Source: Mycoplasma mobile 163K (lineage in GTDB: Bacteria; Bacillota_I; Bacilli_A; Mycoplasmatales; Metamycoplasmataceae). From it: 32,000 bases of DNA. Below the pieces are notes generated by a model. That model saw only the letters and a list, made by a program, of their open reading frames with translations, ran no database searches and was not told where the DNA came from. The DNA is taken from NCBI RefSeq assembly GCF_000008365.1, contig NC_006908.1, forward strand, positions 600,001-632,000, written 5' to 3'. Both the position numbers and the translations under genes were made by a program. Of the stretch, positions 6,867-31,570 are shown piece after piece (the stretch's first letter is position 1; every line of letters begins with the position of its first letter).

Positions 6867-7754
6867 ATGAGTATGAATAAAATTTTATTAATTGATGGAA
6901 ATCTTTTAGCCTTTAAATCTTTTTTTGCAACAGCTTATATAGGTTCATCTTTACAAACTTCCACTGGGATTCCTACTAATGCTGTGCACACTTTTATTAA
7001 TACTATTTTTAAATTGTTAAAAGAACTAAATCCAACTCATATTTTTGTTGCTTTTGATAAACCTGGAAAAACTTTTAGACACGAATTTTTTGAAGAGTAT
7101 AAAAGCAAAAGACAATCTACTCCAGATAGTTTAAAAGTCCAATTCATTTATATCAAACGTGTTTTAAGTAAAATGAGAATTTGTTGATTTGAAGAAAGTT
7201 TAATTGAAGCTGATGATTTAATTGCAACTTGAGTTTCAAAAATTAACACTTCAAAAGATGAAGTAATTGTTTATTCTTCTGATAAAGACTTATTGCAATT
7301 AGTTGCAAAAAATGTCTCTGTAATTTCAAAATGAGATAAAAATGAATATGTAATTGATAATGAAAACAATTTTTTTGAAAGGCATTCAATTTTTCCTAAT
7401 CAAATCCCAGATTTCAAAGCTCTTGCTGGTGATGCAAGTGATAATTACTTAGGAATTAGCGGAATCGGACCTAAAACTGCAATTAATTTATTAAGTGAGT
7501 TTCAAATCATTGAAAATTTATATGAAAATTTAGCAAATATAAAAAGTAAAAAAGTAAAAGAAGTTTTGGAATTAGAAAAAGACAAGGCTTTTTTGTATAA
7601 AAAAATTGCTAAATTAAAAACAGATGTGAATCTGAATTTTAGTTTAGAAGACATTAAATTGAGCTATAAATTTCAAAAAGAAGCTATGGAAATTTTTGAA
7701 GAGTTAGAAATGAAAAACACATCAAGCAAATACTTGAATGTGTTTAATTTATAA
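6867..7754 (+). CDS. 5'-3' exonuclease (Pol I N-terminal/FEN-like domain only, 295 aa)
   Basis: Track ORFs 6867..7187 and 7566..7754 share a frame and are joined across three in-frame TGA codons. Motifs: ILLIDGNLLAFKSFFA, FDKPGKTFRHEFFEEYKSKR, EADDLIAT, SSDKDLLQL and GDASDNYLGISGIGPKTA (H3TH). An SD-like AAAGGAG lies at 6851-6857. Confidence 0.9.
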
Positions 7755-9915
7755 TCTTTGAAATCGATGCATGATTTTTCAAAAGTGTCTTAGGCTGTTT
7801 TTTATTTGTAAAAAGCACTGTAATTTGACCTAAAGATTCTTCAAGAACAATTCCTTCTCCGAAAACTTTATGGACAATTTTGTCCCCTACAAAGATATCA
7901 TCATTATTTGTTTGATAATCTTTCATTAAATCTACTTGCTTATTCAAAAGTACAGAATTCATATATTGTTCCATTGTTTTTTGATTTTCATTTTCAAGAA
8001 CAATTCCCATTTCTCCAATAAATCTTGAAGTTTTTTTCTGAGTTTTAAAATTACCAAATAAATATCCATCAGAATCTGTTAAGAATAACATTTTTTTAGC
8101 TCTTGTGATTGCTACATAAGCTAATCTTCTTTCTTCTTCAAGATTTGAATCATCGAAGTCATTTTCTAAAGCTTTTTTAGAAGGCAAAATTTCTTCTGAT
8201 AAACCCACAAGAAAAACATAACTAAACTCCAATCCTTTACAATTATGAATGTTCATTAATGAAACCGTGTTTTTATCATCTTCTTGACTAGCATTTGGAA
8301 CTAGAGAAATTTCTTCAAAATAATCTTGAAATGTTTTTTTAGGATTATTTCTAAATCAGTTTGAAATGATGATTAATAATTCTTTAACATTATCTACTTT
8401 TCCATTTTTAAAAGTATCTTCATTTGCTAAATAATCATAATATTTAATATCTGCAAAAAATTCATCAACAGAAACTTGCACATTATTTTCATTAATAATT
8501 TTTTGATACTTATTGATTTTAAAAATAAGATCAAAAAGTTTTTCTCTAATATTAGATGAAACTGGTAGATCTTCTAGATGATTGTTTATTGCTTGGAAAA
8601 TGCTCAAATTACTTTCATCACAATAGTCTAAAATTTTATTTCTATAAATGTTACCAATACTTCTCTGAGGAATATTTAAAATTCTTTGAAAAGCTAGATC
8701 TGAATCACTGACTAATAATTTTATATATGAAAGAGCATTTTTTATTTCGCTTCTTTCATAAAATTTTTCTCCACCATGAACTTGGTGATGAATACTTTCT
8801 CTTAAAAGAGCATCTTCAAAATTTTTAGAATAAAAATTTGCTCGATAAATAATACTAATTTCGCTTAATTTTGCTTTTTCGATAGAAATCAATCATTTTA
8901 TTTTATCAACAACTCATCTTGCTTCTAATTCGGGACTAAGTGCGTGGTGAAATATTACTTCTTGACCTTGTTTTGTATAAGCAACTAAATCTTTTTCTAA
9001 TCTTTTTTTGTTGAAATGAATTAAAGAATTAGCGTGTTTTAAAATTTTTTCTGTTGAACGGTAATTTAGATTTAAATTGATTGTTTTTGCATTTTCAAAA
9101 TCCTTATGAAAATCTAAAATTAAATTTACATTTGCTCCTCTTCATGAATAAATAGTTTGATCTGGATCTCCTACAATAGTTAAATTATGATTTTGAGCTA
9201 AAGTTTTAATTATTTCATATTGAATTGGTGATGTGTCTTGAAACTCATCAACAAGAATGTACTTAAATCTTCTTGATCATTTAAGTTTAATTTCTGGAAA
9301 TTTTTCAAATAATTCTTGAGTTTTCAAAAGTAAATCATTAAAATCTAATAAAGCTAATTTTTTTAATATTTCATTATATTCCAAATAAATTTTTAGTTTT
9401 ATTCTATCATCTTCAGAATTATCTTCGGTTTCTAAAACTTCAATTGGAGTTTTGTTTATTTTGTGAAAAGAAATATAATTTATCATTGAAGTTAAAGTTA
9501 TATCAATTTTATTAATGTCAAATTTTTCATAAATATTTTTTAAGATATCAAATTGATCAGCGACGTCTAAAATTGTAAAATTTTTAGGATATTTTAGAAC
9601 ATCAATATCTCTTCTTAAAATATAAACACATAAAGCATGAAAAGTGCTTATTAAAGGTTCACTTTCATGATTATCGACAAGAGTTTTAATTCTTTCTTTC
9701 ATTTCGTTTGCAGCTTTATTTGTAAAAGTAACAGCAAGGATTTGATATGGCTTAACATTCATTTTTTGAATTAAATAAGCAATTTTGTGTACTAAAACTC
9801 TTGTTTTTCCACTACCTGCTCCTGCAATAATTCTTAAAGGTGAATCATTAAAAACAACAGCTAGTTTTTGATCTTTGTTTAAAGAATCTAATAGATTTTT
9901 TTCTGACTTTTCCAT
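7744..9915 (-). CDS. pcrA: ATP-dependent DNA helicase PcrA/UvrD (SF1A), canonical paralog, 723 aa
   Basis: Track ORFs 7744..8256, 8356..8892 and 9277..9915 share one frame. I translated both gaps and found only TGA, no TAA/TAG. Motifs: AGAGSGKT, VTFTNKAANEM, ILVDEFQDTS, VGDPDQTIYSWRGA, NYRS, LMNIHNCKGLEF, RRLAYVAITRAK, and a C-terminal VHKVFGEG module. SD AAGGAG lies 5 nt before the ATG. Confidence 0.93.
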
Positions 9916-9924
9916 AAAGACTCC

Positions 9925-11481
9925 TTAATTTCAAGTGTAATAATATTTAAGTGAAATAGATTTTTTCTGTTTTTCATTAATGTTAAAATCAGGGTTTTCA
10001 TACACTAATACTATTCCTCTTTTTTTAGCGACGTTTGCTAAATCTAGTAATCCAAAAATATTTTCAGAAACTCCTAATTTAGTTGCAATTTTTTCACTTA
10101 TAAAAAGATATTTTGGATTTATCGTATTTATTAACGAAAAAAGTGCAGGATCGATTTCTTCTACATAAATTCCATATCTTACATCTTCTTTTTCTAACTC
10201 TGTGAAAATATTTGAAATTTCATTAAAATTTTTTATGTCTATTTTTTTCAAAATGAAAATGTTTCTATTTAATTTTAGTTTTTCATAATGTTTTACTAGT
10301 TGATAATCATTTAGAAAATAAAAAGTATTTTCAAATAAATTATTTTCTAAAAAGAATTTTTCAAAAAAAGCATCCAAAACAATATTTCTATTATTTTCAT
10401 TTAATAAAATTTCTGTCATTCCTTCTTCATTATTTAATTTTGGAACAATAATCTTTGATATTTCTGAATTTTTACTATTCATTTTTGAAATATTTAAATA
10501 TTTAAAACTTACTTTTTTATTTTGAACATCTAAATAAAAATCAAGAATATTTTTCTTAAATAAATTAAATTTAGAAAAATTAACATCTCTTAATTTAAAA
10601 CCAAAAATTTCTTTTGATCTAATTGATTCTGTAATGGAAAATTGTAATCTTCTTAAAACTTTGTTTATATCTTCTTCAGTTTTAATTGATTTAGCTTCAA
10701 CATATCCAAGGCCATGGAAAAAATAGTCAAGAAAAAAAACTCTTTTACCTTTTTTTTCATATAAATCTAAAAAAGCTCTTTCTTTTCTTTCTAATCTTTT
10801 TAATTTTGAAGATTCAAAAACAATCACAACAACTGATCTAGATTGAAACAAATAAAATTTTTGAAAATGCAACATTTTTACTAAAGATCTAATTAAGGAT
10901 TTTGAAAAATCAAGATGATTTTTTTCAACATTAAAACCAAAAAAAACAGCATATTTAAGATCTTTTTTTAATAATTCTTCTTTTGATGTAAAAACAATTG
11001 ATTTATTATGTTCTTTTTCGATTATTTTATAAGATAAAATGCAATGAATAGTACTTTCATCTTCATAAATTAATTTAAAATCTCCAAAAATATTTTGATT
11101 TTTATTAGTTGGAACAAAAATATTTTCAAGATTAACTTTTAAGTCGCTAATATTATTATTTATATTTAAATTGTTTAATTTTGTAATAAAAATTTCATCT
11201 TTATTTAATTTAAAAAAGTTTTCAAATTCTCTAATTGGAATTCAAAATCCACTTAAGATATTTCTTGGTAAAGGTAAGACAATGTCATGTCTTATTAAAG
11301 GAATTAAATCTACAAGTCTAATTCTTCTTTTTTCTCTATCAAAAACAAAAGATAAAACATTTCTACTGTGGTTTTCTAAATTTTTCTTTTTTTCAAAAAG
11401 TACAATAAAAGCAATAAGTAAACTTATTACAATTAAAATTGATATGCTTGCAAAAATAGAAATAAAAACAATACTTAGCAT
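9925..11481 (-). CDS. Hypothetical membrane-anchored protein (518 aa), one N-terminal TM helix; C-terminal region with weak, degenerate EAL/TIM-barrel-like pattern
   Basis: Track ORFs 9931..10875 and 11242..11481 share a frame. I translated 10876-11241 and found no stop apart from TGA 11242-11244. The 3' end extends through TGA 9931-9933 to TAA 9925-9927. The N-terminus MLSIVFISIFASISILIVISLLIAFIVL is a TM helix. Confidence 0.7.
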
Positions 11482-11488
11482 GTGGTCC

Positions 11489-13717
11489 CTAATTTACTTT
11501 CTTTAATGATGGATGATTTTTTCTAATAGTTTTAGCTTCGTGAGGATGTCTAAATGCAATCGTTACAGTATCATCATTTATATCCATTATTGTTCCTTCA
11601 CCAAAAATGTCATGCATGACAATAAAACCTATTTCAAGTTCGCTTTCCTGATTTACATTCGGATCAACACTTAAATTAGAAGTGAATTGTTGAAGATCTA
11701 TTCCTATTTCATTTAAAAATCTACTTGGAGATTTTTTATATTTTAAATCTGAATTAAAAAAACCTTGAGAATCTGATAAAAATATTCTATCAACAGCTCT
11801 AGTTAAAGCAATATAAAATAATCTTCTTTCATTATCAATTAGATCACTTGAGCCTGTTTTTTCTAATTCTTCAATTGATTTAATATTAGGCCAAATATAT
11901 TCACTTAAACCTACAATAAAAACATTTTTAAATTGTGTTCCTTTAGAATGAATAGCTGAAATTAGTGAAACACTATTTTTGCTTAAAGGACTTTTGTATT
12001 TAGAAGAAATTAATGAAATCTCTTCTAAATAATCAGCTAAATTTTTATTTCTATTTGCATTTTCTCAAATTTTTATTGAATTTAAAAGTTCAAGAATATT
12101 TTTTTCTTTATCGCTACCTGCATCATCATCTTTTAAATAATCATAATATTTAACTTCTTCTAAAAAACCATGTAAAGATTTGTAAATTGGATATTTTTTA
12201 AGAGCATTACGATATTTTCTAAATGAATTTATTAAATTAACTAAATTTAATAAAATTGTCTTATTTTTAGTATTTCATTGCAACTTCATTTTAGAAGTAA
12301 CTTCTTTTTTAGTATCTTTAAATAAATTAATTAAAGCATCATAAATATTTTCATTTCTAGATTCTGCATATTCCAAAAGTTTTTTTTCAAAAGTAACAGA
12401 AACATCCCGATTAGGAACATTTAAAATTCTTAAAAAAGTTGTTGAAGATCCATCATGTAAAACTCTCAAAAAAGAAATACAATCTTTGATTTCATCACGC
12501 TCATAAAATTTATTATCATCCAAAATTTGAAAATTAATCTCTGCTTTTTCCAATTCATCTTCGAAACTTTTAGTATAAAAACTTGAACGATAAAAAATAG
12601 CAATATCTTTTAGTTGTACTTTATTTCTTTTTAATTTATTGATTTTATGAACAACTCATCTTGCTTCTGCATCTGTACTAAATGCTTGCTGATAAACAAT
12701 TTTTTCCTCTTCTAAATTTTGAGCTTCCATTTCTTTAATAGAACTTTCAAAACTAGTATTATTTTTTTTCATTAAATTATTAACAGCTTCAATAATTGAT
12801 TTATTTGAACGATAATTTTTATTTAAGTGAAAAATTTGAACATTAGGAAAATCTTCATGAAATTTAGACATATATTTAACATCAGTGTATTTTGGTGAAA
12901 AAATTGTTTGATTAGTGTCTCCAACAATCATAATTGGAGTTTTCATAGCTATTTTTTTTAATATTTCATATTCTTGAAAACCTAAATCTTGAAATTCATC
13001 TATTAAAATGTATGAAAAATATTGGCTTCATTTTTTTCTTATTTCAGGAAATTCAGATAATAGTTCAAATGTCTTAGTAACTAAATCTTCATAATCAATA
13101 CTTTTATTTTTTTCTAAGTATTTTTCATAAGACATATAAAATTCTGCTTTTAATTTTATTAAATCGTTTTTTGCTTCATTGTAAGAATCTTTTGGACTAA
13201 TATTTTTAATTTTATTAGCTGAAATAAAAGCAAAAATTTCATCTAATTTAACAGTTCCTTCTTTTAAATTTTTATGTCTAAAAATTTGTTGTAGCACTTG
13301 CTTTTTATCTGTATTATCAGTTAAAATAAAATCATTAGGCAAACCTAATTTATCAATATCTTCTCTTAAAATTTTTCCACAAAAAGTATAAAAAGTATGA
13401 ATATTTGTAGTTTTTTCAAAATCAAAACTAAAAAATCTTGAAATTCTGTTTTTCATCTCATCAACTGAATGTTCATTTAAAGTAATTACTAAAATTTTTT
13501 CATAATCAATTCCCAAAACAGATGATAAATAAGCATATCTTCTTGTTAAAACTTTTGTTTTACCACTACCAGCACTTGCTAGAACCTTTGAGCTAGTTTT
13601 TGAATTTAAAGTAACAATGCTTTTTTGAATGTCATTTAAGCCTTCTAAAAGTTTATCTTCAATTCTTGGCTCTTCATTCAATTCATTATTACTTTTTTTC
13701 ATATATGTCCTCTTCAT
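11489..13717 (-). CDS. UvrD/PcrA-family SF1 helicase, divergent second paralog (742 aa; alternative start ATG 13702 preceded by AAGAGGA)
   Basis: Track ORFs 12275..12553, 12656..12946 and 13028..13717 share a frame. I translated 11489-12277 and both gaps: TGA only, with the true stop TAG at 11489-11491. Motifs: ASAGSGKTKV, ILIDEFQD, VGDTNQTIF (motif III lacks the RGA), NYRS, AIHSKGTQF, RRLFYIALTRA, and C-terminal VMHDIFGEG. Confidence 0.88.
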
Positions 13718-19532: not shown

Positions 19533-21413
19533 ATGAATAGTCAAAATAATTATTTAAATAATAAAAAAGTTAAATCAAAATTTTGAAAAAGACTTTTTTT
19601 ACTTGGCGGAATAACTTTAGGTCTAAGCATGATTGGTGCAGGTGGTTTTTTTGCTATTAATAGTATTACAAATATTTCAACAAGTACTTCTCAAGTAATT
19701 GTTCCTCAAAGTGTTTTTGCACAAACTACTTATACTGATCCTAAAACAAATCATTCTTTAATTATTAAAGAATATAAAGCAATTTATAATCATCCTGCTA
19801 CAAGTGTTCCTAATGAAAGCAATTTGAGATTTTATCTTACTAAAGAAAATGAAGATGGGAGTCATGATACTAGTGTTTTAAAACAATTAGCTCAGTATAT
19901 TTTTGAAAATTTAAGTTTTGGCCCTGAAATTTCAGAATTAAAATCAATTAGCATAGGATATCAACAACTTGGAGTTATTGATGTAAATGGTTTTTATATT
20001 CCTGCTACAAATGAAATGTTTATTGATCCTAACCCTGTTATAAAATCTTTAGAAGGATTAAAATATTCAATTGATCCTAAATTAAATAATTCTAATTCTT
20101 TGAGTGATTTACAAAAAATTCAAGCAATTTTTTCTACTATTTTCCATGAATATGGTCATCACATTGCAACTGTTTATGCTAGTTCAATAAAATCAACTGA
20201 TATTTCAAGTGAAAAAATTTATTTTAATGTTATTGATTCAAAAAATATAGTAACTGAATCAAGGGAAGAAATTTATAATTCTAATTTTTATAAAGAATTT
20301 TTAAAATATACAAATTTAGAAAGTAATTCAATAAATAATTCAAGAAGATATACAAGTTCTGGAAATAGTTTTGATTCTATAAACATTGGGAGCTTAACTT
20401 CTGCTTCAGAATTATTTGATATTGCAAATAAGAAGTATCTTAAAGGGGCAACAAACATTTTTAAAGTAAATGACAATGATTCTCATAAATTTTCAAGTAC
20501 TATTGACTCAAATATTAATTTAGATCGCAAAACATTAGGTCATTTAGAAGATAGAACTTTAGGATATTATTATTCTTTTGAAGAACAATTCACTAGAAAA
20601 TATCAGAGATTAAGCTTTAGTCCTCCAATTAGTCTTAATGATTCGAATCAATTTAGCAACAATGTAAAAAATGCAATTCAATTTTACGGAACTTCAAACG
20701 TTAGTTCTTTAAGTAGTTTTGGGCAAGATATTTTACATAACTTTTCTATTAAAAAAGTTGGTAATTCTTATCAAATTAATAATCTATATTTAGCTGATAA
20801 TCCTTTTGGCGGAGTTTTTCAAACTGATGAAGGACACGAAACAATTGTAGATCAATCTCTTAAATTATATGAATCATATTTAAAATTAATTGGTTATGGA
20901 GCAAGTATTAGTCAGATCCATCATCGCAATGAAACTTCAGCAGGTGCAAGTGGAAGTCTAAGTGTTACTACTAAAGAATCTTTTGATCAAATTAAATTTG
21001 ATGGTTATTTTGATTCAACAAAAAACATTAAAGGCTTAGTTTTAAAAAATAAAAATAATATAAATGAAGTTTTACCAATAAAAATTACAACAAATGAAAA
21101 TTTTGCATTTAAATCAAAAAGTAGTATTACTTCTAGTCGTGATATTTTCCCTCAAAATACAACGGCATTTGCTTCTGTTTTATATAATTCATATTCAACA
21201 CGTGAATATGTGGATTTGAATAAAATTAATCTAAATATTCCAATTAAATTTTGAAATGATTTTAATAATGATAATGAATTACAAGAAAGTGAATTAGAAA
21301 ATTTAGTCTCAACTTCTGAAACAAGAAAAGTAACAAATTTTAGATCTCATAATTCAGAAAAATTAAAATACTACCAAATTTCTAATGATTTTATTATCAA
21401 AAAAGATTATTAA
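19533..21413 (+). CDS. Membrane-anchored surface protein with HExxH zinc-metallopeptidase motif (626 aa)
   Basis: Track ORF 19629..21254 extends upstream to ATG 19533 (MNSQNNYLNNKKVKSKFWKRLFLLGGITLGLSMIGAGGFFAI, an N-terminal TM anchor with no lipobox Cys). It extends downstream through TGA 21252-21254 to TAA 21411-21413. FHEYGHHIA lies at 20142-20168. Confidence 0.6.
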
Positions 21414-21474: not shown

Positions 21475-22077
21475 ATGAAATTAAAAGAAGATCAAATAGA
21501 ATTAAATGGTGTTCCTGAATTAGGAAGCATTATTAATATTCAAGCATATAAATATGATGGAACTTTATATCGCCAGTGAAATGGAGCTAGAGTTCTTGAA
21601 GTTTCTCCATTTCATATTGTTTTAGTCTTAATTAAAACTAAAGTAGCTGAAGAGACTAATCGTAAGTGAATTATAAGAGAACCAACATTATGATTTTTTC
21701 CTGTTGAAGGAAGTTTTTTCAATGCTTCAATTCTTTTAAGAAAAAAAGAAAAATTATATTACATCAATTTATCTTCTCCTCCTATTTTTGAAGATAATAC
21801 TTTAAAATTTATTGATTTTGATTTAGATATTAAAATTAGTCCGAAACAAATTTTTTCAGTTGTTGATGAAAATGAATTTGCAATTAATTCTAAAGAATTT
21901 AAATATTCAGAAGAATTAATAAAATTAATAAGGAAAAATATCAAATTAATCAGAGTTAATTTTCACGATAAAGATTATATTTTTGATGATGATTTTTTAG
22001 AATCATACATTAATGAACTAAAAGATTTGAGATTGGTTAAAGAATCTTTTAAAATAATAGCAAAGAAAAAACACTAG
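21475..22077 (+). CDS. DUF402 (UPF0374/Ntdp-like nucleoside di/triphosphatase family) protein, 200 aa
   Basis: Not in the track because three in-frame TGA codons break it. MKLKEDQIELNGVPELGSIINIQAYKYDGTLYRQWNGARVLE...NLSSPPIFEDNTLKFIDFDLDIKI matches the conserved DUF402 core (KYDG..R.W; IDxDLD). Stop TAG 22075-22077. Confidence 0.75.
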
Positions 22078-22096
22078 AATATCTAGTGTTTTTTTA
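22065..22096. terminator. Bidirectional intrinsic terminator shared by the convergent DUF402 gene and the large helicase gene
   Basis: AAAAAACACTAG-AATAT-CTAGTGTTTTTTT: stem 22071-22077/22083-22089 flanked by an A-run and a T-run. It overlaps both stop codons (TAG 22075-22077 on plus, TAA 22094-22096 on minus). Confidence 0.65.
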
Positions 22097-25000
22097 TTTA
22101 AAATTAGTAATATGGTTATTAATTTCATCTAAAATATTTTGTTTGTTCAAGTATCAATCAATTTTTTTTATAATTTTTATTGGGTATTTTTTAGATCTAA
22201 TAAAATTAATTTGATCTTTGTCACTTACATAATTATAGTATGATTCATGATAATAATAATCATCTGCAAAAACAGCTAATAAAACTTGTTTTGTATTTTT
22301 ATCCATAATTGCCAAATCAATATTTTTAGTTCCTATTGTATAATTAATTTCCATTTCATACATTAAAAGATTTAATCTTTTACTTAAAGCATCATGAATA
22401 TTTTGAATAAATTCTTGGTTATTTTTAACAAATAAATGTTCTGTTAAAGTTCTAGTGATTTCAGAAACATTAATATAATTTCTTTGCTCTTTTGCACTTA
22501 AGTCTAAAAAGTTTAATCACTCTCTAAAAATAAATAAATCTTCTGGAGCATTTAAAGCATTAATGTCTTTAGCGTAAATTGATTTAACAACAATCATCTT
22601 ATCTTTAGCTCGACTGATAGCAACATTTAAAGCGTTTTTCCCACCTTTTTTTGCAACATAAGTTGAATGTAGTTTTGTTGTTGAATCATATGAAACTGAA
22701 GCAATAACTAAATCAGCTTCATCTCCTTGAATATTTTCAATATTTCTTAATAATAATTTTTCATTCTGAATAGCTTCTTCTAAATCTGGCATTGATTCAA
22801 AAATAGTTTTTTCTAAAAGATTTTGCTGCGAAGAGTTAAAACATAAAATAATAATTTTTTCATGTTTTTTTAATTCCTTAGCAGTAATTTCTAAAACAGC
22901 TTCAGCTTCAGCATGATTTTCACTATTTTCTCATTTACCATTAATATTAACAACTTCAATTGGTAAAAAAGCTTTTTCAGAATTAATGTCCAAAACATCC
23001 AATTCACCTTTATAAAAATGTTTGCTACTAAAAGTCATTAAGGCAGCATAATTTGAGCGATAATTCTTATCTAATAAAACATTATAAGTACCTTTAGTTG
23101 TTGCATAATCTAGTAAACTATCAATTCCACTTAAAAAGTTTTCATCTTCACCTTCAAATTTTTGGGCAAATCATCTTGTTGGCTGCATTTGTTGATCATC
23201 ACCTGCAAGAATTTTAATTTTAGCTAAATATAGAACAGGAAGTCCTTTTTCTAAAAAGATTTGCGAAGACTCATCTAAAATTGCATAATCAAATTCTTCT
23301 TTTTGTCAATACTTTAAATCTGTTTCAGGAGTAGTAATGATAATTGGAAATAAAATTTTAATAATTTTATAGTGAATATTGATAAATTTTTGTGGAGTTA
23401 AAAAACCTTTTCTTACACTGACTGTAAATTCACTATAAAGTTTTTTATATTCATCGTCAAAATTTTTGATTCGATTAATAATATTTTTAAAAATTAAAGC
23501 TTGGATTGATTCAATACTTGTAATTTCAACATTATTTTCATCAAATTTATATTTTGAAAAATTAGCAATTCCTAAAAGATGTTCTTTTTTAAATTCTTTT
23601 AACCTTATAATGGTTTCATTAATATTACCTTGAAAATCTTTTAATTCTTCTTTAATAACATTAAAAAACTTTTCAGCTTCATCATGACTTAATTTATTTT
23701 TCCCACGTTTAATTTCATTGTTGACTAAAAAACTTTTAATAGCTCTTCTTTTGTTTTCTTCAATAATTAAATCATTGTAGTTATAAGCAGGATCAAGTTT
23801 TAAAAATGATTCTAAAGTATTAGGATTAATTGAACTTGAATTTTCACTAATATAGCCTAAAAGATTTAAAATATTATCAAAATTTTCTAACTTAACAATT
23901 TTTTCTAAAATATCAATGTATTTTTTTTCTTCGGGAGAAATAATTCTAATTGGATCTTGAATTTTTGGAGAAGTAAAATTCTCTAATTCATTAATGTATT
24001 GTTGTAATGGCAAATAAAATTCTTTTTTATCCATTCCTTTTCCATTCAAGACAAAAATACAAAATATACTTAAATCTTCTAAACGATTTCTTAAAACTTC
24101 TAAAGCAGCTTTTTTTTGACTAACAACTAAAGCTGTTTTTTTATAAACTAAAATATTAGCAATAATATTACTAATTGTTTGTGATTTACCAGTCCCTGGA
24201 GGCCCTCAAATAATTGTATTTTGTAATAATGAACTTACAGTTGCTAAATCTTGGGAAAAGTTAGTTCTTTGAATTTTATAAAAATTAAAACTATCCTTAA
24301 AAATTACTGAAAGCACTTTATTTTTATAAGAATTTTTATCAAAATCAATTTTTAAAATATCATCAATTTCATCACGGTCAATAATGTCTTGCAAATTTTG
24401 TCTAATTGAATCTCCTGAAGAATCAAAAATTCCTAAAACTACCCCACGATGAAATTCAATTCCTTTATTATTAATTTCTTCAGCTCTTTTGTTTATAAAA
24501 GGTCCATAAATTTCAGGTAATTGATAACCTAAATTTCATGCTCTCATTAACGAAGAAATAAATTCATCTGGAATAATTTTTTCTTCTGAATTTTCACGAT
24601 AATTAAAATTAGTCAAAAAACCTTCGCTTTTTAAAAGAAAAAATAATTTATGATTAATTTTATATTCATTACTTGCAGATAAAACTAAGCTACCTGCTTT
24701 AATATTTAAATAAGCTTCTCTTAAAAAAATTGGAGCATAATAAACTCTTTTTGGAGTTCTAAAACTAATAAAATGTGAAGCTAATTGTAAAGGTCAAATA
24801 TTTGATTCAGTATTAATTTCATTAGCTCTATTAATAAAAATTTTTCACTTTGAAATTCATTTTTGTCCTTTAGTTTCTCAAGAATCAATTAAAGATTTTT
24901 TAGCATTAACAAAATCATTTTGCAAAGCATTAACAATTAATTGAGATAATCTTTGGTTATTAGCATGATAAATCGCTTGAATTTCTTCAATAGTTCTTGC

Positions 25001-25267
25001 TTCAATCAAACGATCTATAATATAAGGGATATCAACATCTTTAATAGCAATATCTAAATCTTGTTTTTTAACAACATGAGTTTGTACTTCAATACCAAAT
25101 TTTAAAAACACATCAAAATAGTTTTCATTATCTATTTTGGTAAAAATTGTTGCATCTTTATTAGAAATACTTAGTAAATTGTTTAATAGAGAGCTATATT
25201 TTTTTCGATTTTCAATTATTTTTAATTTTGCTTCTTCTGAAAGATTTTGATTATCAAAGGTATTCAT
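22094..25267 (-). CDS. Large SF1 (Upf1-like, AAA_11/AAA_12-type) helicase with DUF4011-like N-terminal region and C-terminal Vsr/DUF559-like endonuclease-fold domain (1057 aa); Hhe-like architecture
   Basis: Five track ORFs (22154..22363, 22517..22792, 23306..24049, 24206..24394, 24878..25267) share one frame. I translated all four gaps and the 3' extension: TGA only, stop TAA 22094-22096. Motifs: Walker A WGPPGTGKSQTI (24182-24205), motif II ILDESSQ (23261-23275), AGDDQQMQPT, DKNYRSN, IQGDEADLVIASVSYD, NALNVAISRAKDKMIVV. The C-terminus reads NIDLAIMDKNTKQVLLAVFADDYYYH...IRSKKYPIKIIKKIDW. Confidence 0.85.
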
Positions 25268-25322: not shown

Positions 25323-25691
25323 TTAAGACTTTTGAAGTTTATTTTCAAGTTCTTTTTGGATAGTTGGAGCACTATTTCCAACTACTAAAGAAATTTGAGT
25401 TGTATTATTTACCACTCCACTAATTCCTTTTAAATTTTTTACTTCATCAATTTTTACTAAGGAATTATCATTAATAGCAATTTTAACAATTTGATTTGAA
25501 GATTTAATTGATTTAATATTTTCTTTAGATCCTAAAGAATCAATTAAATCTTCTAATTTAAAACTAATTTTTGTAGAAATACTTAATTCTTTTTTGGGTT
25601 TAATTTGACGATATTTTCTTCAATAAAGTAAAATTAAACCGAAAGTAATAATAATTAAAAAAATATATAAAAACTTATCTTTTTTTGACAT
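25323..25691 (-). CDS. Small membrane-anchored protein with degenerate PTS EIIB(Glc)-like domain lacking the phospho-Cys (122 aa)
   Basis: Not in the track because of a TGA at codon 24. GGAGAGATT precedes ATG 25691-25689. The TM helix is FLYIFLIIIITFGLILLYW. LIDSLGSKENIKSIKSSNQIVKIAINDNSLVKIDEVKNLKGISGVV...ISLVVG aligns by eye with the EIIB pattern (GGKENI...CATRLR...GV.GV...Q.I.G). SSNQIV stands where the CATRLR active site would be. Confidence 0.6.
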
Positions 25692-27941: not shown

Positions 27942-28799
27942 ATGGACCAAATAAAAGCAAGAACAATTGAAATTTTTCTACCAACAGGAGATTCCAAAGA
28001 AGTTTCTCAAGCAATAATTACAAATGAATCTATTAAAATAATATATATTTCAAAATCGGAAATAGAAAATCAAAAAAAGAGAATTAGTAAAATTCAGGGG
28101 TGTTATATATTGGTAGGAAAAGATGATGATGGGAGTGATTTAGCTTATATTGGGCAAACTGAAGACTTTTTTCAAAGATTAAATTTACACAAAAAAGAAA
28201 AGGAGTTTTGAGATGGTGTATATGTAATTCAAAATTCTTCAGATTCTTTTGACCAAGCTCACCTTAATTTTCTAGAAAAATTAATGATACAAGAAGCAAA
28301 AAAAGTGAAAAATTACAAATTAGAAAATGTAAAAGATGGAAATAATTTTTCGATTTCAGAGTCTAAAGAAAATGAATGTTATTTGTATTTTTCAACTATT
28401 AAAACTTTATTAAAAACACTTGGATTTGATTTATTTGTGCCTAATGTTGAAGAATTTGAAATAAACGAAGAAAATAAATTTTATTTTAAGGAAAAAAACA
28501 ATAATTTTAGCGGTGAGGCAATATTTGAAAATGACAAATTGATTGTTCTGAAAAATTCAATTGTTTCAAATGAAGAAAATGTCAAGGATAATTACATTCA
28601 ATATTTAAAATTTAGGAATAAATTAATTAATGAAGGTGTTATTCAAAAAAACAATGAAAATCTTATTTTTATTAAAGATTATCCTTTCAATTCTCCTAGT
28701 GTTGCAGCAGGTGTTATTTCTTTAAAAAGTAAAAATGGATGAGAGGTTTGAAAAAACATAGAAGGTGAATCATTAGATAAAAAATATAGACAAAAATAA
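27942..28799 (+). CDS. GIY-YIG nuclease domain protein with C-terminal DUF4357-like domain (285 aa)
   Basis: Track ORFs 27942..28211 and 28284..28742 plus a 3' extension share one frame; the gaps contain only TGA. The GIY-YIG region is GCYILVGKDDDGSDLAYIGQTEDFFQRLNLH...LNFLEKLMIQEA. The C-terminal FNSPSVAAGVISLKSKNGWEVWK matches the DUF4357 SPS...NGW..WK signature. Confidence 0.8.
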
Positions 28800-28888
28800 A
28801 ACAAAATCTAATTGAATTAATAAATTGCATAATGATTATTAAAATCAAAAGTAATTTAAGAATATAATTTATATAAAGGGAGGTAAAT

Positions 28889-29017
28889 ATGAATTCAAAA
28901 AATAACCAAAAGAGTAATGTTAATAACTCAAATAAAACAACTCCAGATAAAAATAATACAGATTATAAAAATAAAATTGACAACAAATCAAACCAAAAAA
29001 ATCCTAATAAAAAATAA
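28889..29017 (+). CDS. Putative small basic N/K-rich peptide (42 aa)
   Basis: MNSKNNQKSNVNNSNKTTPDKNNTDYKNKIDNKSNQKNPNKK. It is preceded by the strongest SD I noticed in the window (AAAGGGAGG, 6 nt before the ATG) and by TATAAT at 28863-28868. Its low-complexity composition makes it uncertain. Confidence 0.4.
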   Translation: MNSKNNQKSNVNNSNKTTPDKNNTDYKNKIDNKSNQKNPNKK

Positions 29018-29055
29018 ATTTTAATTTAATTAAATTTATTTAACTTTATATTTTT

Positions 29056-29086
29056 AAAATTTATATACATGTTGTATATAAATTTT
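29056..29086. repeat. Perfect 14-bp inverted repeat with 3-nt spacer (hairpin/operator or terminator of the small ORF)
   Basis: AAAATTTATATACA-TGT-TGTATATAAATTTT; the arms at 29056-29069 and 29073-29086 are exact reverse complements. Confidence 0.7.
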
Positions 29087-29143
29087 CATTTTAAACCAGA
29101 AAATGAATTTTACTTATTGTATACTCATATTTTAAAAATACCC

Positions 29144-29201
29144 AAATATGATATATTTATTAAAATATAATCAAAATATGATATATTTATTAAAATATAA
29201 T
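29144..29201 (+). repeat. Two-copy tandem direct repeat (28 nt identical, 30-nt period), each copy carrying a TATAAT box, immediately upstream of gene 29215
   Basis: AAATATGATATATTTATTAAAATATAAT at 29144-29171 recurs exactly at 29174-29201. TATAAT lies at 29166-29171 and 29196-29201. The second copy ends 13 nt before ATG 29215, with AAAGGA between. Confidence 0.9.
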
Positions 29202-29214
29202 GTAAAAGGAATAT

Positions 29215-29772
29215 ATGGTAAATCACACACAAGTAAATTCAAGCAATTCACATCCTATAAATAATGTTATAAGTTATAATGATAGAAGAAAATCAACTAA
29301 ACTTTTAAGAATTTCAATTATAAGTACAATTTTTGCTATTTTAACAATTGTATTTTCAATTTTAGCTTCTCAAAATTTATTAGTAATTTTTAATTCAGGA
29401 ATAAATACAGGAATAAGGAATTTATTTGATTTTATTGGAAATATGCCAGCTATTATTAGTGGTGCTACTACAGGTAATCTTAATATTCCTAATATTCCTG
29501 ATGTAAATGCTTTATTAACTTTAATAACAAATAATATTTCTGGAATTATTTCTGGATCAATATTTGCAATTTTAGGAATAATCTTTTTTATAATCTTTTT
29601 TATTCAATGAATTATTATTGTTATAAAAATCTTTATAACTCGTTGAGATTTAAAATGAGCTAGAAGATGAAGACTTTTATTTGGATTTCTTTCACTATTA
29701 ATAATTTTTTCTATAAGTGGAATTATTTATGCAAGCTTAATAAAACTCCTTTCAAGAAAATTGAATAGTTAA
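29215..29772 (+). CDS. Hypothetical small integral membrane protein (185 aa, about 3 TM helices)
   Basis: Track ORF 29215..29610 extends through four in-frame TGA codons (…FFIQWIIIVIKIFITRWDLKWARRWRLLFGFLSLLIIFSISGIIYASL…) to TAA 29770-29772. Hydrophobic helices: ISIISTIFAILTIVFSILA, GSIFAILGIIFFIIFFIQWIIIVI, LLFGFLSLLIIFSISGIIYA. Confidence 0.7.
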
Positions 29773-29774
29773 TT

Positions 29775-29799
29775 AAATATTGCTTTAGGCAATATTTTT
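29775..29799 (+). terminator. Intrinsic terminator after the membrane-protein gene
   Basis: AAATATTGC-TTTAG-GCAATATTT followed by TT. The 9-bp stem starts 3 nt after the stop codon. Confidence 0.55.
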
Positions 29800-29989
29800 A
29801 TATTCCGATAAAGTGCTTATTATTTAAGAAATACTATTTTAAAATTTATGAAATGAGCAAAAATGTTTTATCATTATATTTAATAAAAAGTAAAAACAAA
29901 ATATTTATTATTTCAACAAAATTAGTATGTAAAACATTAAATATAAAAGTTAAAAGATAATATTATCAAACAATAAGGGAAAATAAATT

Positions 29990-31570
29990 ATGATAAAAAA
30001 AATTTCTAACGATGCTACATACGAAATTTCATCAATTTTTTGTGGTGATAAAAATGAATTTTTTGAATATAAAACTCTCTCAAAATTATTTGAATTTTTC
30101 AATCATTATTTCAATATGAACGACTCTATAAATTTTTATACAGCAATATCTAGGAAAAATTATGTTAATGATAAATTAAAATGGTTAATTGAAAAAGATA
30201 AAATTAATGAATTTTTTGATGTTATTCTTAGTGTTGAATATATACAAAAAGAAGAAAAAGCATTTGAAATATCTGATACTGAAGCATTTGAAAAATCAAA
30301 AAAAATTCTTATTAAATTGAACAATATTTTTAAAAAAGATTTTTATTTAATTGTTAAAAAAAATAATAAATTTTATTTAGAGCATAAAAATGATGAATTA
30401 GTTACTTTAGGTTCAGGAGGGTTTGCTGAAATTTTTAAAGTTAACTCTTCTGGAAGAATTTTAAAAAAATTAAAAAAAGAATTTTGATTAGATAATAAAA
30501 TTGTAAGTAGATTTAAAAGAGAATTTGAGATAATGAAAGATATTCAAAATATAGATGGAATTATTAAAGTTTTTGATTTTTCCTCATCTGATAATAGCTA
30601 TACAATGGAATTTGGAGGAATTACCCTTTATGAACATGTTGAAAATAATAATTTTTCTGAAGAAATTAAATTAAAATATGTTGAAAAAATTTTGAATATA
30701 GTTTCAGAAGTTCATAAGAGAAAATATATTCATAGAGATTTAAGTCCTTCAAATATTTTTATAAATAATGAGAATATTAAAATTGCAGATTTTGGCTTAG
30801 GTAAAAATATTGATTTATTAAAAAATCATTCGCACAAAACAAATAGTACAAAAGATTTAGGACAAATGTATTATTGTGCTCCTGAACAATTAAAATCTTT
30901 AGGTGATGGAACTGCTAAAAGTGATGTTTTTTCTTTAGGTAAAATAATAAATTTTATTTTTAATAAATCGCCTCAGGAAAACGAACACATTTTGAAAAAT
31001 TTAGTAGAAAAATCTACTATAAACGAACCAGATAAAAGATTTTCTGACTCAACAGCGATGCTTTATTCTTTTAAAGATTCTCAAGACCTTTCAAAATATA
31101 AAAAAATTAAAGAAATTGCTTTGGAAAAAATTAAAAATTCAGAATTTGATGATAATGTTAAATTTTTTATCGATTTTTTATCCACGGAAGAAATTTCAAA
31201 ATATTTACTCAATAAAGAGTATCTTATTGATATTAAATTAGTTAATAGTAGTCTTTTAAAGTTTATGAATTTAAGTGAAAATAATGCTTTAAAAATAATT
31301 AAAGGAGTTGAAATGAAATATAAGAAACTATGTGAAATAGTTTCAAAAAGAGATAATGTTAAAATATTCGATTTATATGATAATTTCGCTCTTTTTTCTT
31401 ACATTATATTAAGTGAAAAAGAGGGTTTGTTTCCACTAGAAGTAAGAGAATATGCTGCAAACATATTGAAATATGTAGCATTTGATGTATGAAGATACAA
31501 AGCCCAGAATTTTATAGAGGAATTAAAATTTAATGATATTGATGAAACAACAAAAAATTTATTAAATTAA
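29990..31570 (+). CDS. Hanks-type Ser/Thr protein kinase with unknown N-terminal (~140 aa) and C-terminal (~210 aa) domains, no TM segment (526 aa)
   Basis: Track ORFs 29990..30487 and 30533..31492 plus a 3' extension share one frame and are joined by TGA. Kinase motifs in order: G-loop LGSGGFAEIF (~30407-30436), ILKKLKK (beta3 Lys), REFEIM (alphaC Glu), HRDLSPSN (30731-30754), ADFGLG (DFG 30788-30796), YCAPEQ (APE 30878-30886), SDVFSLG, DKRF. SD-like AAGGGA lies upstream. Confidence 0.85.

What the first reader, a model, noticed from the sequence alone, without database searches (positions are those of the whole stretch)
22094..25267. Intact 1057-aa helicase-nuclease fusion with single-gene defence-type (Hhe-like) architecture in a minimal-genome Mollicute
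The track shows five fragments that look like a decayed gene, but all lie in one frame and I found only TGA codons between them. The product has three parts. The N-terminal ~330 aa has the feel of DUF4011 (LLNNLLSISNKDATIF...). The middle is a complete Upf1-like SF1 helicase core (GPPGTGKS, DESSQ, GDDQQ, NYRS, QGDEADLVI, NVAISRAK). The ~90-aa C-terminus follows the Vsr/DUF559 restriction-endonuclease-like pattern (IDLAI...LLAVFADDYYYH...). From memory of published defence-system surveys, a DUF4011-helicase-Vsr-type nuclease fusion is the architecture of the single-gene anti-phage system called Hhe. The gene has no housekeeping role I can assign. It sits between core genes (DUF402, trpS) and shares a bidirectional terminator with its convergent neighbour. 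A large standalone defence-type gene kept intact in a reduced genome is noteworthy. The expected nuclease acidic residue (E in E-x-D-G) seems replaced in FADD.
Basis: partly seen in the sequence, partly recalled or inferred. Interest (0 to 1): 0.7.

Follow-up and report, generated by a model that had tools for sequence, protein, structure and literature searches.

The report
Conserved Hhe-like helicase of mycoplasmas
The gene is intact and does look like the anti-phage helicase-nuclease Hhe, but it is a shortened relative inherited vertically across a whole family of mycoplasmas, its nuclease site is not conserved, and it is dispensable in culture, so it is not a stray defence gene.

Summary
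Window 25267..22094 (-) is one intact 1057-codon gene under code 4, with 11 in-frame TGA codons and no TAA or TAG. It is 100% identical to an annotated Mycoplasma mobile "DEAD/DEAH box helicase".

So are the terminator hairpin shared with the DUF402 gene and the E-to-F change in "FADD".

- The protein fails the curated Hhe and ProA cut-offs (150 vs 2000 bits; 249.5 vs 1500 bits). It is about half their length and lacks their DUF3320 tail.
- Full-length orthologues occur in more than 50 named Metamycoplasmataceae species, and their tree mirrors genus taxonomy.
- The gene order trpS | small gene, helicase recurs across genera.
- It diverges at the same rate as its core neighbours.
- It is not a single gene. 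A ~120-aa membrane-anchored EIIB-like gene sits directly upstream in 8 of 11 genomes examined.
- All helicase motifs are invariant in 75 orthologues, but the nuclease positions are not.
- The M. bovis orthologue is non-essential by Tn-seq.

Genes matching defence-system profiles over their full length (PDC-S14, Stk2) lie 2.7 kb away.

The parts
22094..25267 (-). Intact 1057-aa CDS (code 4, including the TAA stop): helicase of the DUF4011 / SF1B / Vsr-fold superfamily, annotated in M. mobile as DEAD/DEAH box helicase
   Evidence: AlphaFold2 model: pLDDT 84.8, pTM 0.83.
24263..25267 (-). N-terminal domain, aa 1-335: a helical region followed by a beta-sheet core carrying the invariant W141-K142, N156, W158, P179, N205, K207. 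It is a diverged DUF4011.
   Evidence: No Pfam DUF4011 hit for M. mobile itself. DUF4011 hits 6 of 13 orthologues, best E 5.2e-8. The family N-terminal HMM aligns to Izimaplasma L001 residues 70-356 (E 5.9e-10), which contains that protein's Pfam DUF4011 hit at 103-236. The domain model (pLDDT 80) has no significant PDB fold match, best E 0.25.
22568..24262 (-). Upf1-like SF1B helicase core, aa 336-900: RecA1, a ~240-aa all-helical insertion and RecA2. Every ATPase/helicase motif is invariant.
   Evidence: Pfam AAA_11 and AAA_12 above gathering score. Foldseek best matches are Aquarius, SETX/Sen1, UPF1, IGHMBP2, DNA2 and ZNFX1, at E 1e-19 to 1e-11. The core residues of every motif (Walker A GPPGTGKS, DE-SQ, G-D..Q, DKNYR, QG-E, R886) are identical in 75 of 75 orthologues.
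22097..22417 (-). C-terminal Vsr/DUF559-type (MTES_1575) restriction-endonuclease-fold domain, aa 951-1057, with a non-canonical active site (D984, F1000, D1002, H1007, D1018)
   Evidence: Pfam MTES_1575, E 1.2e-8, 35.3 bits, below the 38.2 gathering score. It hits 9 of 13 orthologues. The family profile matches DUF559 structure 3HRL over the whole domain, E 0.003. The model has alpha-beta-beta-beta-alpha-beta topology at pLDDT ~90. Residue mapping.
25323..25691 (-). Conserved upstream partner gene, 122 aa: an N-terminal transmembrane helix plus a degenerate PTS-EIIB-like domain that lacks the catalytic Cys. It has an AGGAG ribosome-binding site and lies 55 bp before the helicase start, with no terminator between.
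   Evidence: The same gene sits immediately upstream of, or overlapping, the helicase in the 71% relative and in M. pulmonis, M. arthritidis, M. lagogenitalium, M. anseris, M. hyorhinis and M. cynos. It is absent in M. agalactiae, M. sualvi and the M. sualvi-like MAGs. It is 38-70% identical, tracking the helicase. PTS_EIIB scores 28.1 bits in M. lagogenitalium and is weak elsewhere. Sequence.
22066..22094 (.). Palindromic hairpin with an A-tract and a T-tract, overlapping the stop codons of the helicase and of the convergent DUF402 gene: a bidirectional terminator-like site

Best explanation
This is the M. mobile copy of a gene inherited vertically throughout the Metamycoplasmataceae. It is a shortened offshoot (~1050 aa) of the DUF4011 / SF1B-helicase / Vsr-fold superfamily, whose long members (Hhe, ProA, 1600-1900 aa) are anti-phage proteins.

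Shown. The ATP-driven Upf1-like motor is the part under strict selection. The C-terminal Vsr-fold domain is kept as a fold, but its catalytic positions are not conserved across the family. The gene is co-oriented with, and usually abuts or overlaps, a small membrane-anchored EIIB-like gene. The M. bovis orthologue can be disrupted in culture.

Inferred. The protein works as a 5'-to-3' translocase/unwindase on single-stranded or branched DNA, as expected for SF1B enzymes of the Upf1/DNA2/Sen1 class. The diverged DUF4011 domain would act as a substrate-sensing or regulatory module. The Vsr-fold domain would act mainly as a DNA-binding module. In M. mobile itself, which still has D984/D1002/H1007/D1018 at the Vsr D51/H64/H69/D97 positions, that domain may still nick DNA.

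I judge its role to be a conditionally useful genome-maintenance or surveillance function fixed in the lineage: handling aberrant replication or recombination intermediates. I do not think it is a mobile abortive-infection nuclease. My rough split is 55% genome maintenance, 30% a chromosomally fixed immune function, 15% something else.
For: Intactness and identity.

Superfamily link. PADLOC hits PDC-S37 at 3.8e-69 and Hhe at 9e-42. NCBIfam hits ProA at 5.8e-74 and Hhe at 6e-44. Plasmid proteins with full-strength DUF4011 and MTES_1575 domains that score just under the ProA cut-off (Haloferax, Vibrio) share the domain order. Intermediate forms, HRDC + DUF4011 + SF1 + MTES_1575 and ~1235 aa, occur in Izimaplasma and Acholeplasma.

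Vertical inheritance. There are more than 50 named species. The neighbour-joining tree recovers the Mycoplasmopsis, Metamycoplasma and Mesomycoplasma clades and places M. mobile next to M. sualvi. Synteny is conserved. Identity to the closest relative is 70.8%, against 71.1% for TrpS, 65.6% for the tRNA methyltransferase and 68.0% for DUF402. GC content is ordinary, 0.23-0.24.

No mobile-element link. There were no relatives in IMG/VR and one weak hit among 50,697 phage records.

Motor versus nuclease. The core residues of all helicase motifs are identical in 75 of 75 orthologues. D984 is Pro in 21 of 75, position 1007 is His in 2 of 75, and the canonical Glu position is Phe in M. mobile and non-acidic in all 75.

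Dispensability. MBOVJF4278_00541 has the same neighbours as the M. agalactiae orthologue (IF3/L35/L20 on one side, choline kinase/EF-4 on the other). Its log2FC is +1.07 and it is classed non-essential (PMC6753880 Table S2).
Against: No biochemical or genetic data exist for this family, so polarity, substrate and role are inferred from relatives.

Every functionally tested relative is an anti-phage protein. Non-essentiality and variable C-terminal extensions (1027-1764 aa) fit an immune role as well as a maintenance role.

Core status alone does not exclude an immune role. In P. aeruginosa a DUF4011 gene is present in every isolate and flanks defence hotspot cDHS1 (PMC10250203). In M. mobile, PDC-S14-like and Stk2-like genes lie 2.7 kb away.

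E. coli Vsr itself has Phe at the 'missing Glu' position, and M. mobile keeps all four Vsr-equivalent residues, so nuclease activity in this particular protein cannot be excluded.

Universality within the family was not shown, because no complete presence/absence matrix could be built.
Confidence: 0.55

Rival explanations
1. It is a true Hhe-type single-gene anti-phage system. The helicase senses phage DNA metabolism and the C-terminal Vsr-type nuclease destroys DNA, and the gene is kept as an accessory defence gene in a small genome.
For: The best profile hits are to defence families. The order of the three domains is the same. [quoted passage not shown] M. mobile keeps the residues equivalent to Vsr D51/H64/H69/D97. 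Genes matching the PDC-S14 and Stk2 defence profiles lie nearby. The M. bovis orthologue is non-essential.
Against: It scores 150 of the 2000 bits required for Hhe and 249.5 of 1500 for ProA, and the best-scoring stretches lie in the C-terminal half. It is half the length and has no DUF3320/wHTH tail. Nuclease residues are not conserved in orthologues: Pro at 984 in 28%, including its nearest named relative M. sualvi. It shows family-wide vertical inheritance, conserved synteny and a core-like substitution rate. A conserved partner gene contradicts 'single gene'. There is no link to mobile elements.
Confidence: 0.12
2. It is a chromosomally fixed immune gene. It would be a domesticated two-gene module, the membrane EIIB-like protein plus the helicase, that interferes with incoming DNA by helicase action rather than by cleavage.
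For: All characterised relatives are immune proteins. The partner gene is conserved and often overlaps the helicase start. The M. bovis orthologue is dispensable in culture. A core DUF4011 gene, with a small conserved neighbour, flanks a defence hotspot in P. aeruginosa.
Against: Defence genes rarely persist vertically across three genera at the rate of housekeeping neighbours. The partner gene is missing in M. agalactiae, M. sualvi and related MAGs. There is no experimental support.
Confidence: 0.25
3. It is an essential core replication/repair helicase, the alternative named in the reader's refutation clause.
For: It is conserved family-wide, syntenic with aminoacyl-tRNA synthetase and tRNA-modification genes, and has invariant motor motifs.
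Against: The M. bovis orthologue tolerates transposon insertions: log2FC +1.07, against an essentiality threshold of < -4.64. An M. hominis clinical strain carries an ICE inside a DUF4011 gene (PMC12228374), though orthology there is unverified. The locus is rearranged in the M. sualvi lineage.
Confidence: 0.05
4. It is a decaying pseudogene split into five fragments.
For: Table-11 ORF calling gives five fragments.
Against: All interruptions are TGA, at conserved Trp columns. The product aligns end to end with orthologues (1-1053 of P0002) and gives a confident structure model.
Confidence: 0.01

Closest known systems
Hhe (single-gene anti-phage helicase-nuclease; NCBIfam NF042953 'DUF4011 domain-containing anti-phage protein Hhe', PADLOC PDLC02194)
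   Same: The order is the same: DUF4011-type N-terminus, Upf1-like SF1 helicase, Vsr/MTES_1575-fold C-terminus. The similarity is significant (E 6e-44 and 9e-42).
   Different: It reaches 150 bits against a 2000-bit cut-off. The best stretches cover profile positions ~1280-1780 of 1800-1900. It is 1057 aa, with a much shorter insertion in RecA1 and no tail after the REase domain. It is vertically inherited and syntenic rather than accessory. Its nuclease residues are not conserved, and it has a partner gene.
ProA (NCBIfam NF058533 'anti-phage protein ProA') and PADLOC candidate PDC-S37
   Same: These are the best-scoring curated and candidate families (249.5 bits, E 5.8e-74; 231.8 bits, E 3.8e-69). 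The near-ProA plasmid proteins of Haloferax and Vibrio show the same domain order, with strong DUF4011 (92-129 bits) and MTES_1575 (125-136 bits) hits.
   Different: The cut-off is 1500 bits. Those proteins are 1566-1683 aa, carry DUF3320, keep the canonical D..ExDG..H..RDxDR motif, and sit on plasmids.
HRDC-DUF4011-SF1-MTES_1575 proteins (~1235 aa) of Izimaplasma and Acholeplasma, and ~1250-aa forms in Bacillota (Allobacillus, Caloramator)
   Same: They are 28-31% identical over residues ~240-1055, with DUF4011 and MTES_1575 above Pfam gathering scores. The Mollicute forms also lack the canonical Glu.
   Different: They have an N-terminal HRDC domain and a longer insertion. The Allobacillus protein keeps the intact IECDG..YH motif.
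Upf1-like SF1B helicases (UPF1, SETX/Sen1, IGHMBP2, DNA2, Aquarius, ZNFX1)
   Same: The fold of the motor and all its motifs match (Foldseek E 1e-19 to 1e-11; PDB sequence hits).
   Different: Identity is 12-16%. The flanking domains differ. Those enzymes are eukaryotic RNA/DNA-processing enzymes.
Vsr endonuclease / DUF559 (PDB 1CW0, 3HRL) / MTES_1575 REase (Anantharaman et al. 2013, PMC3710099)
   Same: It has the alpha-beta-beta-beta-alpha-beta REase fold. The profile matches 3HRL (E 0.003). M. mobile D984/F1000/D1002/H1007/D1018 align with Vsr D51/F62/H64/H69/D97.
   Different: The canonical ExDG Glu is absent. Across orthologues the D51-equivalent is Pro in 28% and the H69-equivalent is His in only 3%.
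Other Mollicute paralogue lineages: ~1380-aa DUF4011 proteins (Ureaplasma, and Metamycoplasmataceae MAGs), ~1114-aa Malacoplasma form, M. bovis MBOVJF4278_00637 / Mbov_0647
   Same: They belong to the same superfamily, and Prokka names both M. bovis copies 'putative ATP-dependent helicase MG140'.
   Different: They are longer, with strong DUF4011 and MTES_1575 hits. Some MAG contigs that carry a short form appear (judged by matching contig length) to carry a long form too. The long M. bovis copy lies beside type I restriction-modification genes and was proposed to be horizontally transferred (PMC3365025). These look accessory.

Membership tests
Hhe (NCBIfam NF042953, equivalog) | Whole-protein score at or above the curated cut-off of 2000 bits | tested here: not met
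   149.9 bits; best stretch 657-921 against profile positions 1280-1564 of 1797
Hhe (PADLOC PDLC02194) | Match along most of the 1911-position profile | tested here: not met
   140.5 bits; best stretch covers profile positions 1364-1782
Hhe | N-terminal DUF4011 domain | tested here: inconclusive
   There is no Pfam hit for the M. mobile protein at E<=1. PF13195 hits 6 of 13 orthologues, best E 5.2e-8. The family N-terminal HMM aligns to the DUF4011 region of an Izimaplasma homologue at E 5.9e-10.
Hhe | Single-gene system found as an accessory or defence-island gene | tested here: not met
   A partner gene is conserved upstream and the gene is inherited vertically and syntenically
Hhe | Protects against phage when expressed | not testable with these tools
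ProA (NCBIfam NF058533, equivalog) | Whole-protein score at or above 1500 bits | tested here: not met
   249.5 bits; best stretch 586-1055 against profile positions 1230-1705 of 1903
Upf1-like SF1B helicase (Pfam AAA_11 + AAA_12) | Both domains above gathering score, with intact Walker A, DExx, motif III, IV, V and VI | tested here: met
   40.9 and 52.6 bits against a gathering score of 27. Core motif residues are identical in 75 of 75 orthologues. Foldseek matches UPF1, SETX, IGHMBP2 and DNA2.
MTES_1575 / Vsr-type REase (Pfam PF18741) | Domain score at or above the gathering score of 38.2 bits | tested here: not met
   35.3 bits, E 1.2e-8, covering positions 5-96 of the 96-position model. Homology is still well supported: the family profile matches 3HRL and the model has the right topology.
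MTES_1575 / DUF559 nuclease | Catalytic motif D ... E-x-D-G ... H ... D-x-x-R | tested here: not met
   The Glu position is F1000 in M. mobile and non-acidic in all 75 orthologues. The first Asp is Pro in 21 of 75. The His position is His in 2 of 75. D1002 and D1018 are invariant.
Vsr endonuclease proper | Residues equivalent to D51, H64, H69 and D97 | tested here: inconclusive
   M. mobile has D984, D1002 (Asp where Vsr has His), H1007 and D1018. The set is not conserved in orthologues. Activity is untested.
Essential core genes of mycoplasmas | No transposon insertions tolerated | tested here: not met
   M. bovis orthologue MBOVJF4278_00541 has log2FC +1.07 and is classed non-essential (PMC6753880 Table S2). 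Orthology is inferred from gene order identical to M. agalactiae L034.

The most novel reading that the evidence does not exclude
The membrane-anchored, catalytically dead EIIB-like protein and the nuclease-decayed Hhe-like helicase form a two-protein module fixed across the Metamycoplasmataceae. The module would tether an SF1B motor at the membrane to intercept incoming DNA (phage, ICE or chromosomal transfer) or to process it without cleavage. That would make it a domesticated, nuclease-independent descendant of an anti-phage system, kept for hundreds of millions of years in minimal genomes.
Probability: 0.1. Interest if true: 0.65.

Novelty: new variant of a known kind. Interest (0 to 1): 0.33.

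Why it matters
Defence-system finders rely on profile similarity, and this case shows the risk. A protein with the Hhe/ProA domain order and E-values of 1e-40 to 1e-70 is, in mycoplasmas, a vertically inherited gene whose helicase motor is conserved and whose nuclease site is not. It marks a branch of the DUF4011 helicase superfamily that has been streamlined and fixed in reduced genomes. [quoted passage not shown] If the conserved pairing with a small membrane protein is functional, it would offer a tractable minimal-genome model for what the DUF4011 helicase motor does apart from killing phage-infected cells. For annotating this window, the genes that match defence-system profiles are the PDC-S14-like and Stk2-like genes 2.7-6 kb away, not this helicase.

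Tried and rejected
- Genome collection scans. The first scan, with the single protein, found nothing. It returned no mycoplasmas, only Izimaplasma, Acholeplasma and distant helicases. A full presence/absence matrix therefore could not be built. Synteny came instead from the look-up of encoding contigs and from mycoplasma chromosomes mislabelled as plasmids in PLSDB.
- Naming of distant cluster representatives. Most carry no name. The calls yielded only M. phocimorsus, Malacoplasma muris, Ca. M. pogonae, an unclassified 'Mollicutes bacterium PWAP' MAG and a second M. ciconiae copy.
- The MG140/MPN153 lead, recalled from memory. M. genitalium and M. pneumoniae proteins did not appear among the top 120 hits of the M. 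mobile, Malacoplasma or M. hyorhinis queries. The only support is that Prokka names both M. bovis copies after MG140. I have left it as unverified.
- The M. hominis ICE inserted in a 'DUF4011 gene'. I could not show whether that gene belongs to the short family. The 1072-1073-aa metagenomic cluster I suspected to be M. hominis has the M. sualvi gene context instead.
- 'A missing Glu means a dead nuclease'. I rejected this as a stand-alone argument after verifying that E. coli Vsr has Phe at that position. The argument now rests on the lack of conservation of the D51- and H69-equivalent positions.
- Tn-seq papers for M. hyopneumoniae and M. hyorhinis. Their supplements list only species-specific genes. 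The M. bovis 2014 paper has no helicase entry.
- Pfam scan of the 75-sequence alignment.


Full report
**Observation**

The reverse strand of window 22094..25267 reads as 1058 codons. Under table 11 there are 11 internal stops. All are TGA, and the only TAA/TAG is the terminal TAA. With the window's composition (A 0.37, T 0.39), a frame of this length free of TAA/TAG has a chance of about 7e-36.

Eight of the 11 TGA codons sit on columns where Trp is invariant in 75 orthologues, and a ninth sits where Trp is at least 90% conserved. The other genes of the window use TGA and almost never TGG. The 'five fragments' are what table-11 ORF calling returns.

The table-4 product (1057 aa) is 100% identical to an annotated protein, 'DEAD/DEAH box helicase [[Mycoplasma] mobile]', on a 777,079-bp contig. 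So the gene is intact, and it is already annotated as such.

**Anatomy**

Pfam finds three domains:
- AAA_11 at 336-697.
- AAA_12 at 717-894.
- MTES_1575 REase at 961-1053 (E 1.2e-8; 35.3 bits, just under the 38.2 gathering score).

There is no DUF4011 hit for this protein, even at E<=1.

An AlphaFold2 model built on 75 orthologues is confident (pLDDT 84.8, pTM 0.83). Its best PDB matches are the Upf1-like SF1B helicases Aquarius, SETX/Sen1, UPF1, IGHMBP2, DNA2 and ZNFX1 (E 1e-19 to 1e-11).

The last ~105 residues fold as alpha-beta-beta-beta-alpha-beta at pLDDT ~90. A profile of this domain matches the DUF559 structure 3HRL along its whole length (E 0.003). MTES_1575 was defined as a 'novel Vsr-REase' (PMC3710099).

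The N-terminal 335 residues are a diverged DUF4011:
- PF13195 hits 6 of 13 orthologues, best E 5.2e-8.
- A family HMM of this region aligns to residues 70-356 of an Izimaplasma homologue (E 5.9e-10). Pfam places DUF4011 at 103-236 of that protein, above its gathering score.
- A separate model of the domain (pLDDT 80) has no significant match among solved structures, best E 0.25.

**Relation to Hhe and ProA**

| Library | Family | Score | Cut-off | E-value |
|---|---|---|---|---|
| PADLOC | PDC-S37 | 231.8 bits | none given | 3.8e-69 |
| PADLOC | Hhe | 140.5 bits | none given | 9e-42 |
| NCBIfam | ProA | 249.5 bits | 1500 bits | 5.8e-74 |
| NCBIfam | Hhe | 149.9 bits | 2000 bits | 6e-44 |

The best-scoring stretches lie in the C-terminal half of the protein and match the last third of profiles 1550-1911 positions long.

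Two plasmid proteins of Haloferax and Vibrio (1683 and 1566 aa) serve as comparators. They score 1304 and 1391 bits, just under the ProA cut-off. They have strong DUF4011 (92-129 bits) and strong MTES_1575 (125-136 bits), a DUF3320 tail in the Vibrio protein, and a RecA1 insertion about twice as long.

The M. mobile protein is therefore a homologue with the same domain order, but it fails every curated membership threshold. [quoted passage not shown]

**Distribution and inheritance**

Full-length homologues (~1030-1460 aa, 38-46% identical) occur in more than 50 named species. They span Mycoplasmopsis, Metamycoplasma and Mesomycoplasma, and include M. pulmonis, M. arthritidis, M. fermentans, M. 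agalactiae, M. hyopneumoniae, M. hyorhinis and M. salivarium.

A neighbour-joining tree of 33 named orthologues, rooted with Izimaplasma and Acholeplasma, recovers the three genera as clades. It places M. mobile beside M. sualvi.

Synteny is conserved:
- A metagenomic relative (71% identical) has exactly the M. mobile order: DUF402, helicase, small gene | trpS, tRNA methyltransferase.
- The arrangement trpS | small gene, helicase also occurs in M. arthritidis, M. anseris and M. hyorhinis.
- M. lagogenitalium has small gene, helicase, then the same methyltransferase.

Identity to the 71% relative is 70.8% for the helicase. It is 71.1% for TrpS, 65.6% for the methyltransferase, 68.0% for DUF402 and 69.7% for the small gene. 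At genus distance the helicase is 39-45% identical, like the methyltransferase (45%) and somewhat below TrpS (56-60%).

GC content is unremarkable. Family-specific patterns found no relative in IMG/VR, and the phage collection gave one weak partial hit. None of this fits a recently acquired or mobile defence gene.

Window 25691..25323 (-) encodes a 122-aa protein with an N-terminal transmembrane helix and a degenerate PTS-EIIB-like domain. It has an AGGAG ribosome-binding site and ends 55 bp before the helicase start, with no terminator between.

The same gene lies immediately upstream of the helicase, often overlapping it, in the 71% relative and in M. pulmonis, M. arthritidis, M. lagogenitalium, M. 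anseris, M. hyorhinis and M. cynos. In the last two it is annotated as a PTS IIB or IIABC subunit. It is absent in M. agalactiae, M. sualvi and the M. sualvi-like MAGs.

Its divergence tracks that of the helicase. PTS_EIIB passes the Pfam threshold only in M. lagogenitalium (28.1 bits), and the catalytic Cys is missing in most copies. Whether the two proteins interact is unknown.

**Nuclease site**

Alignment to canonical MTES_1575 domains maps GIECDG..YH..RDRDR..GW onto AVFADD..YH..SDKDQ..KY.

This alone does not prove inactivity. I verified the E. coli Vsr sequence against 1CW0, and Vsr has Phe at that position. Its D51/H64/H69/D97 align with M. mobile D984/D1002/H1007/D1018.

Across the family the picture is different. 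D984 is Pro in 21 of 75 orthologues, including M. sualvi, the nearest named relative. Position 1007 is His in only 2 of 75. D1002 and D1018 are invariant.

By contrast, the core residues of every helicase motif are identical in all 75 orthologues. Selection therefore acts on the motor and on the fold of the C-terminal domain, not on a nuclease active site. M. mobile may retain residual activity.

The canonical Glu is also missing in the Izimaplasma and Acholeplasma forms. A short-form homologue in Spiroplasma sp. JKS002669 (38% identical) and a Bacillota homologue keep the intact IE[VC]DG..YH motif.

**Essentiality**

[quoted passage not shown] These are the same neighbours as the M. agalactiae orthologue has. 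Its log2FC is +1.07 and it is classed non-essential; the essentiality threshold is < -4.64 (PMC6753880 Table S2).

A second, longer copy (00637 = MBOVPG45_0243) sits beside type I restriction-modification genes and is also non-essential. A 183-kDa DUF4011/MTES_1575 protein of M. bovis HB0801, Mbov_0647, which may be the same long paralogue, was earlier proposed to be horizontally exchanged with the mycoides cluster.

Long (~1380 aa) DUF4011 paralogues also occur in Ureaplasma and in Metamycoplasmataceae MAGs.

Mollicutes thus appear to have both accessory-looking long forms and this vertically inherited short form.

**Interpretation**

The protein is best described as a streamlined, lineage-fixed, non-essential relative of Hhe and ProA.

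The conserved part is an SF1B motor. By analogy with the Upf1/DNA2/Sen1 class, I infer that it translocates 5'-to-3' on single-stranded nucleic acid.

I infer that the Vsr-fold domain acts mainly as a DNA-binding module and the DUF4011 domain as a sensing or regulatory module. I judge the role more likely to be conditional genome maintenance or surveillance (about 55%) than immunity (about 30%).

The immune reading is not excluded:
- Every characterised relative is an immune protein.
- A DUF4011 gene is core in P. aeruginosa, where it flanks defence hotspot cDHS1 next to a small conserved gene (PMC10250203).
- In M. mobile, genes matching defence-system profiles lie close by.

**In passing**

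Window 27942..28799 is a full-length PDC-S14 match (E 6e-76). Window 29990..31570 is a full-length Stk2 match (E 8.3e-150, covering 496 of the 500 profile positions). A multi-transmembrane protein is encoded between them, and GC dips to 0.18 there.

These genes lie between the tRNA methyltransferase and an aminoacyl-tRNA synthetase gene. They are absent at the corresponding place in the 71% relative and in M. lagogenitalium. They look like the accessory, defence-type insertion in this window.

**Verdict**

I rate the finding a new variant of a known kind, of modest interest.

Noticed in passing
window 27942..31570 (+): Three genes look like an accessory, defence-type insertion. (1) A 285-aa DUF4357 protein is a full-length PADLOC PDC-S14 match (E 6e-76). 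(2) A 185-aa multi-transmembrane protein lies at 29215..29772. (3) A 526-aa Ser/Thr kinase is a full-length Stk2 match (E 8.3e-150, profile positions 3-498 of 500). GC dips to 0.18. The block lies between the tRNA U5-methyltransferase gene and an aminoacyl-tRNA synthetase gene. It is absent at that place in the 71%-identical relative (L044) and in M. lagogenitalium (L033).
   Followed up: partly
window 25323..25691 (-): A 122-aa gene for a transmembrane, degenerate PTS-EIIB-like protein lies directly upstream of the helicase. It is conserved there in M. mobile and in 7 of the 10 other genomes examined (8 of 11), often overlapping the helicase start. The catalytic Cys of EIIB is missing in most copies. 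Its function is unknown.
   Followed up: partly
P0007/P0329, P0019/P0325, P0092/P0337, P0048/P0350 (paired by matching contig length); P0089 and P0170 (both M. ciconiae): Several Metamycoplasmataceae genomes carry a second paralogue. In MAGs it is a ~1380-aa protein with strong DUF4011 and MTES_1575 hits, whose longest contig has the same length as that of a short form, so the two probably share a contig. M. ciconiae has two short-form copies, 41% and 33% identical to the M. mobile protein.
   Followed up: partly
L045 5001..8204 (Spiroplasma sp. JKS002669, P0146): A short-form homologue (1067 aa, 38% identical, full length) keeps the canonical nuclease motif IEVDG..YH. The loss of the Glu in the Metamycoplasmataceae short form may therefore be secondary. 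An unrelated 87-aa coiled-coil ORF precedes it in place of the EIIB-like gene.
   Followed up: partly
window 7744..9915 (-) and 11489..13717 (-): Two UvrD/PcrA-type helicase paralogues (723 and 742 aa) lie on the same strand. They are separated by a 518-aa membrane-anchored protein (9925..11481) that has no Pfam match.
   Followed up: no
window 19533..21413 (+): A 626-aa protein has an N-terminal hydrophobic segment and an HExxH-like motif (FHEYGHH) but no Pfam family. It may be a surface metalloprotease.
   Followed up: no
L038 3951..9060 (Spiroplasma citri plasmid pSciBLHMB-7): A DUF4011-type helicase gene appears to be split into three consecutive CDSs (621, 576 and 500 aa). It lies next to an NgoFVII-family restriction endonuclease on a plasmid, so this is an accessory copy of the superfamily in another Mollicute.
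   Followed up: no
L043, L041, L042 (M. sualvi and related MAGs): In the M. sualvi lineage, the nearest named relatives of M. mobile, the helicase has moved to a different neighbourhood (obg ... helicase, a 799-aa protein, a class I aminoacyl-tRNA synthetase). It has also lost the EIIB-like partner and has Pro at the D984 position.
   Followed up: partly
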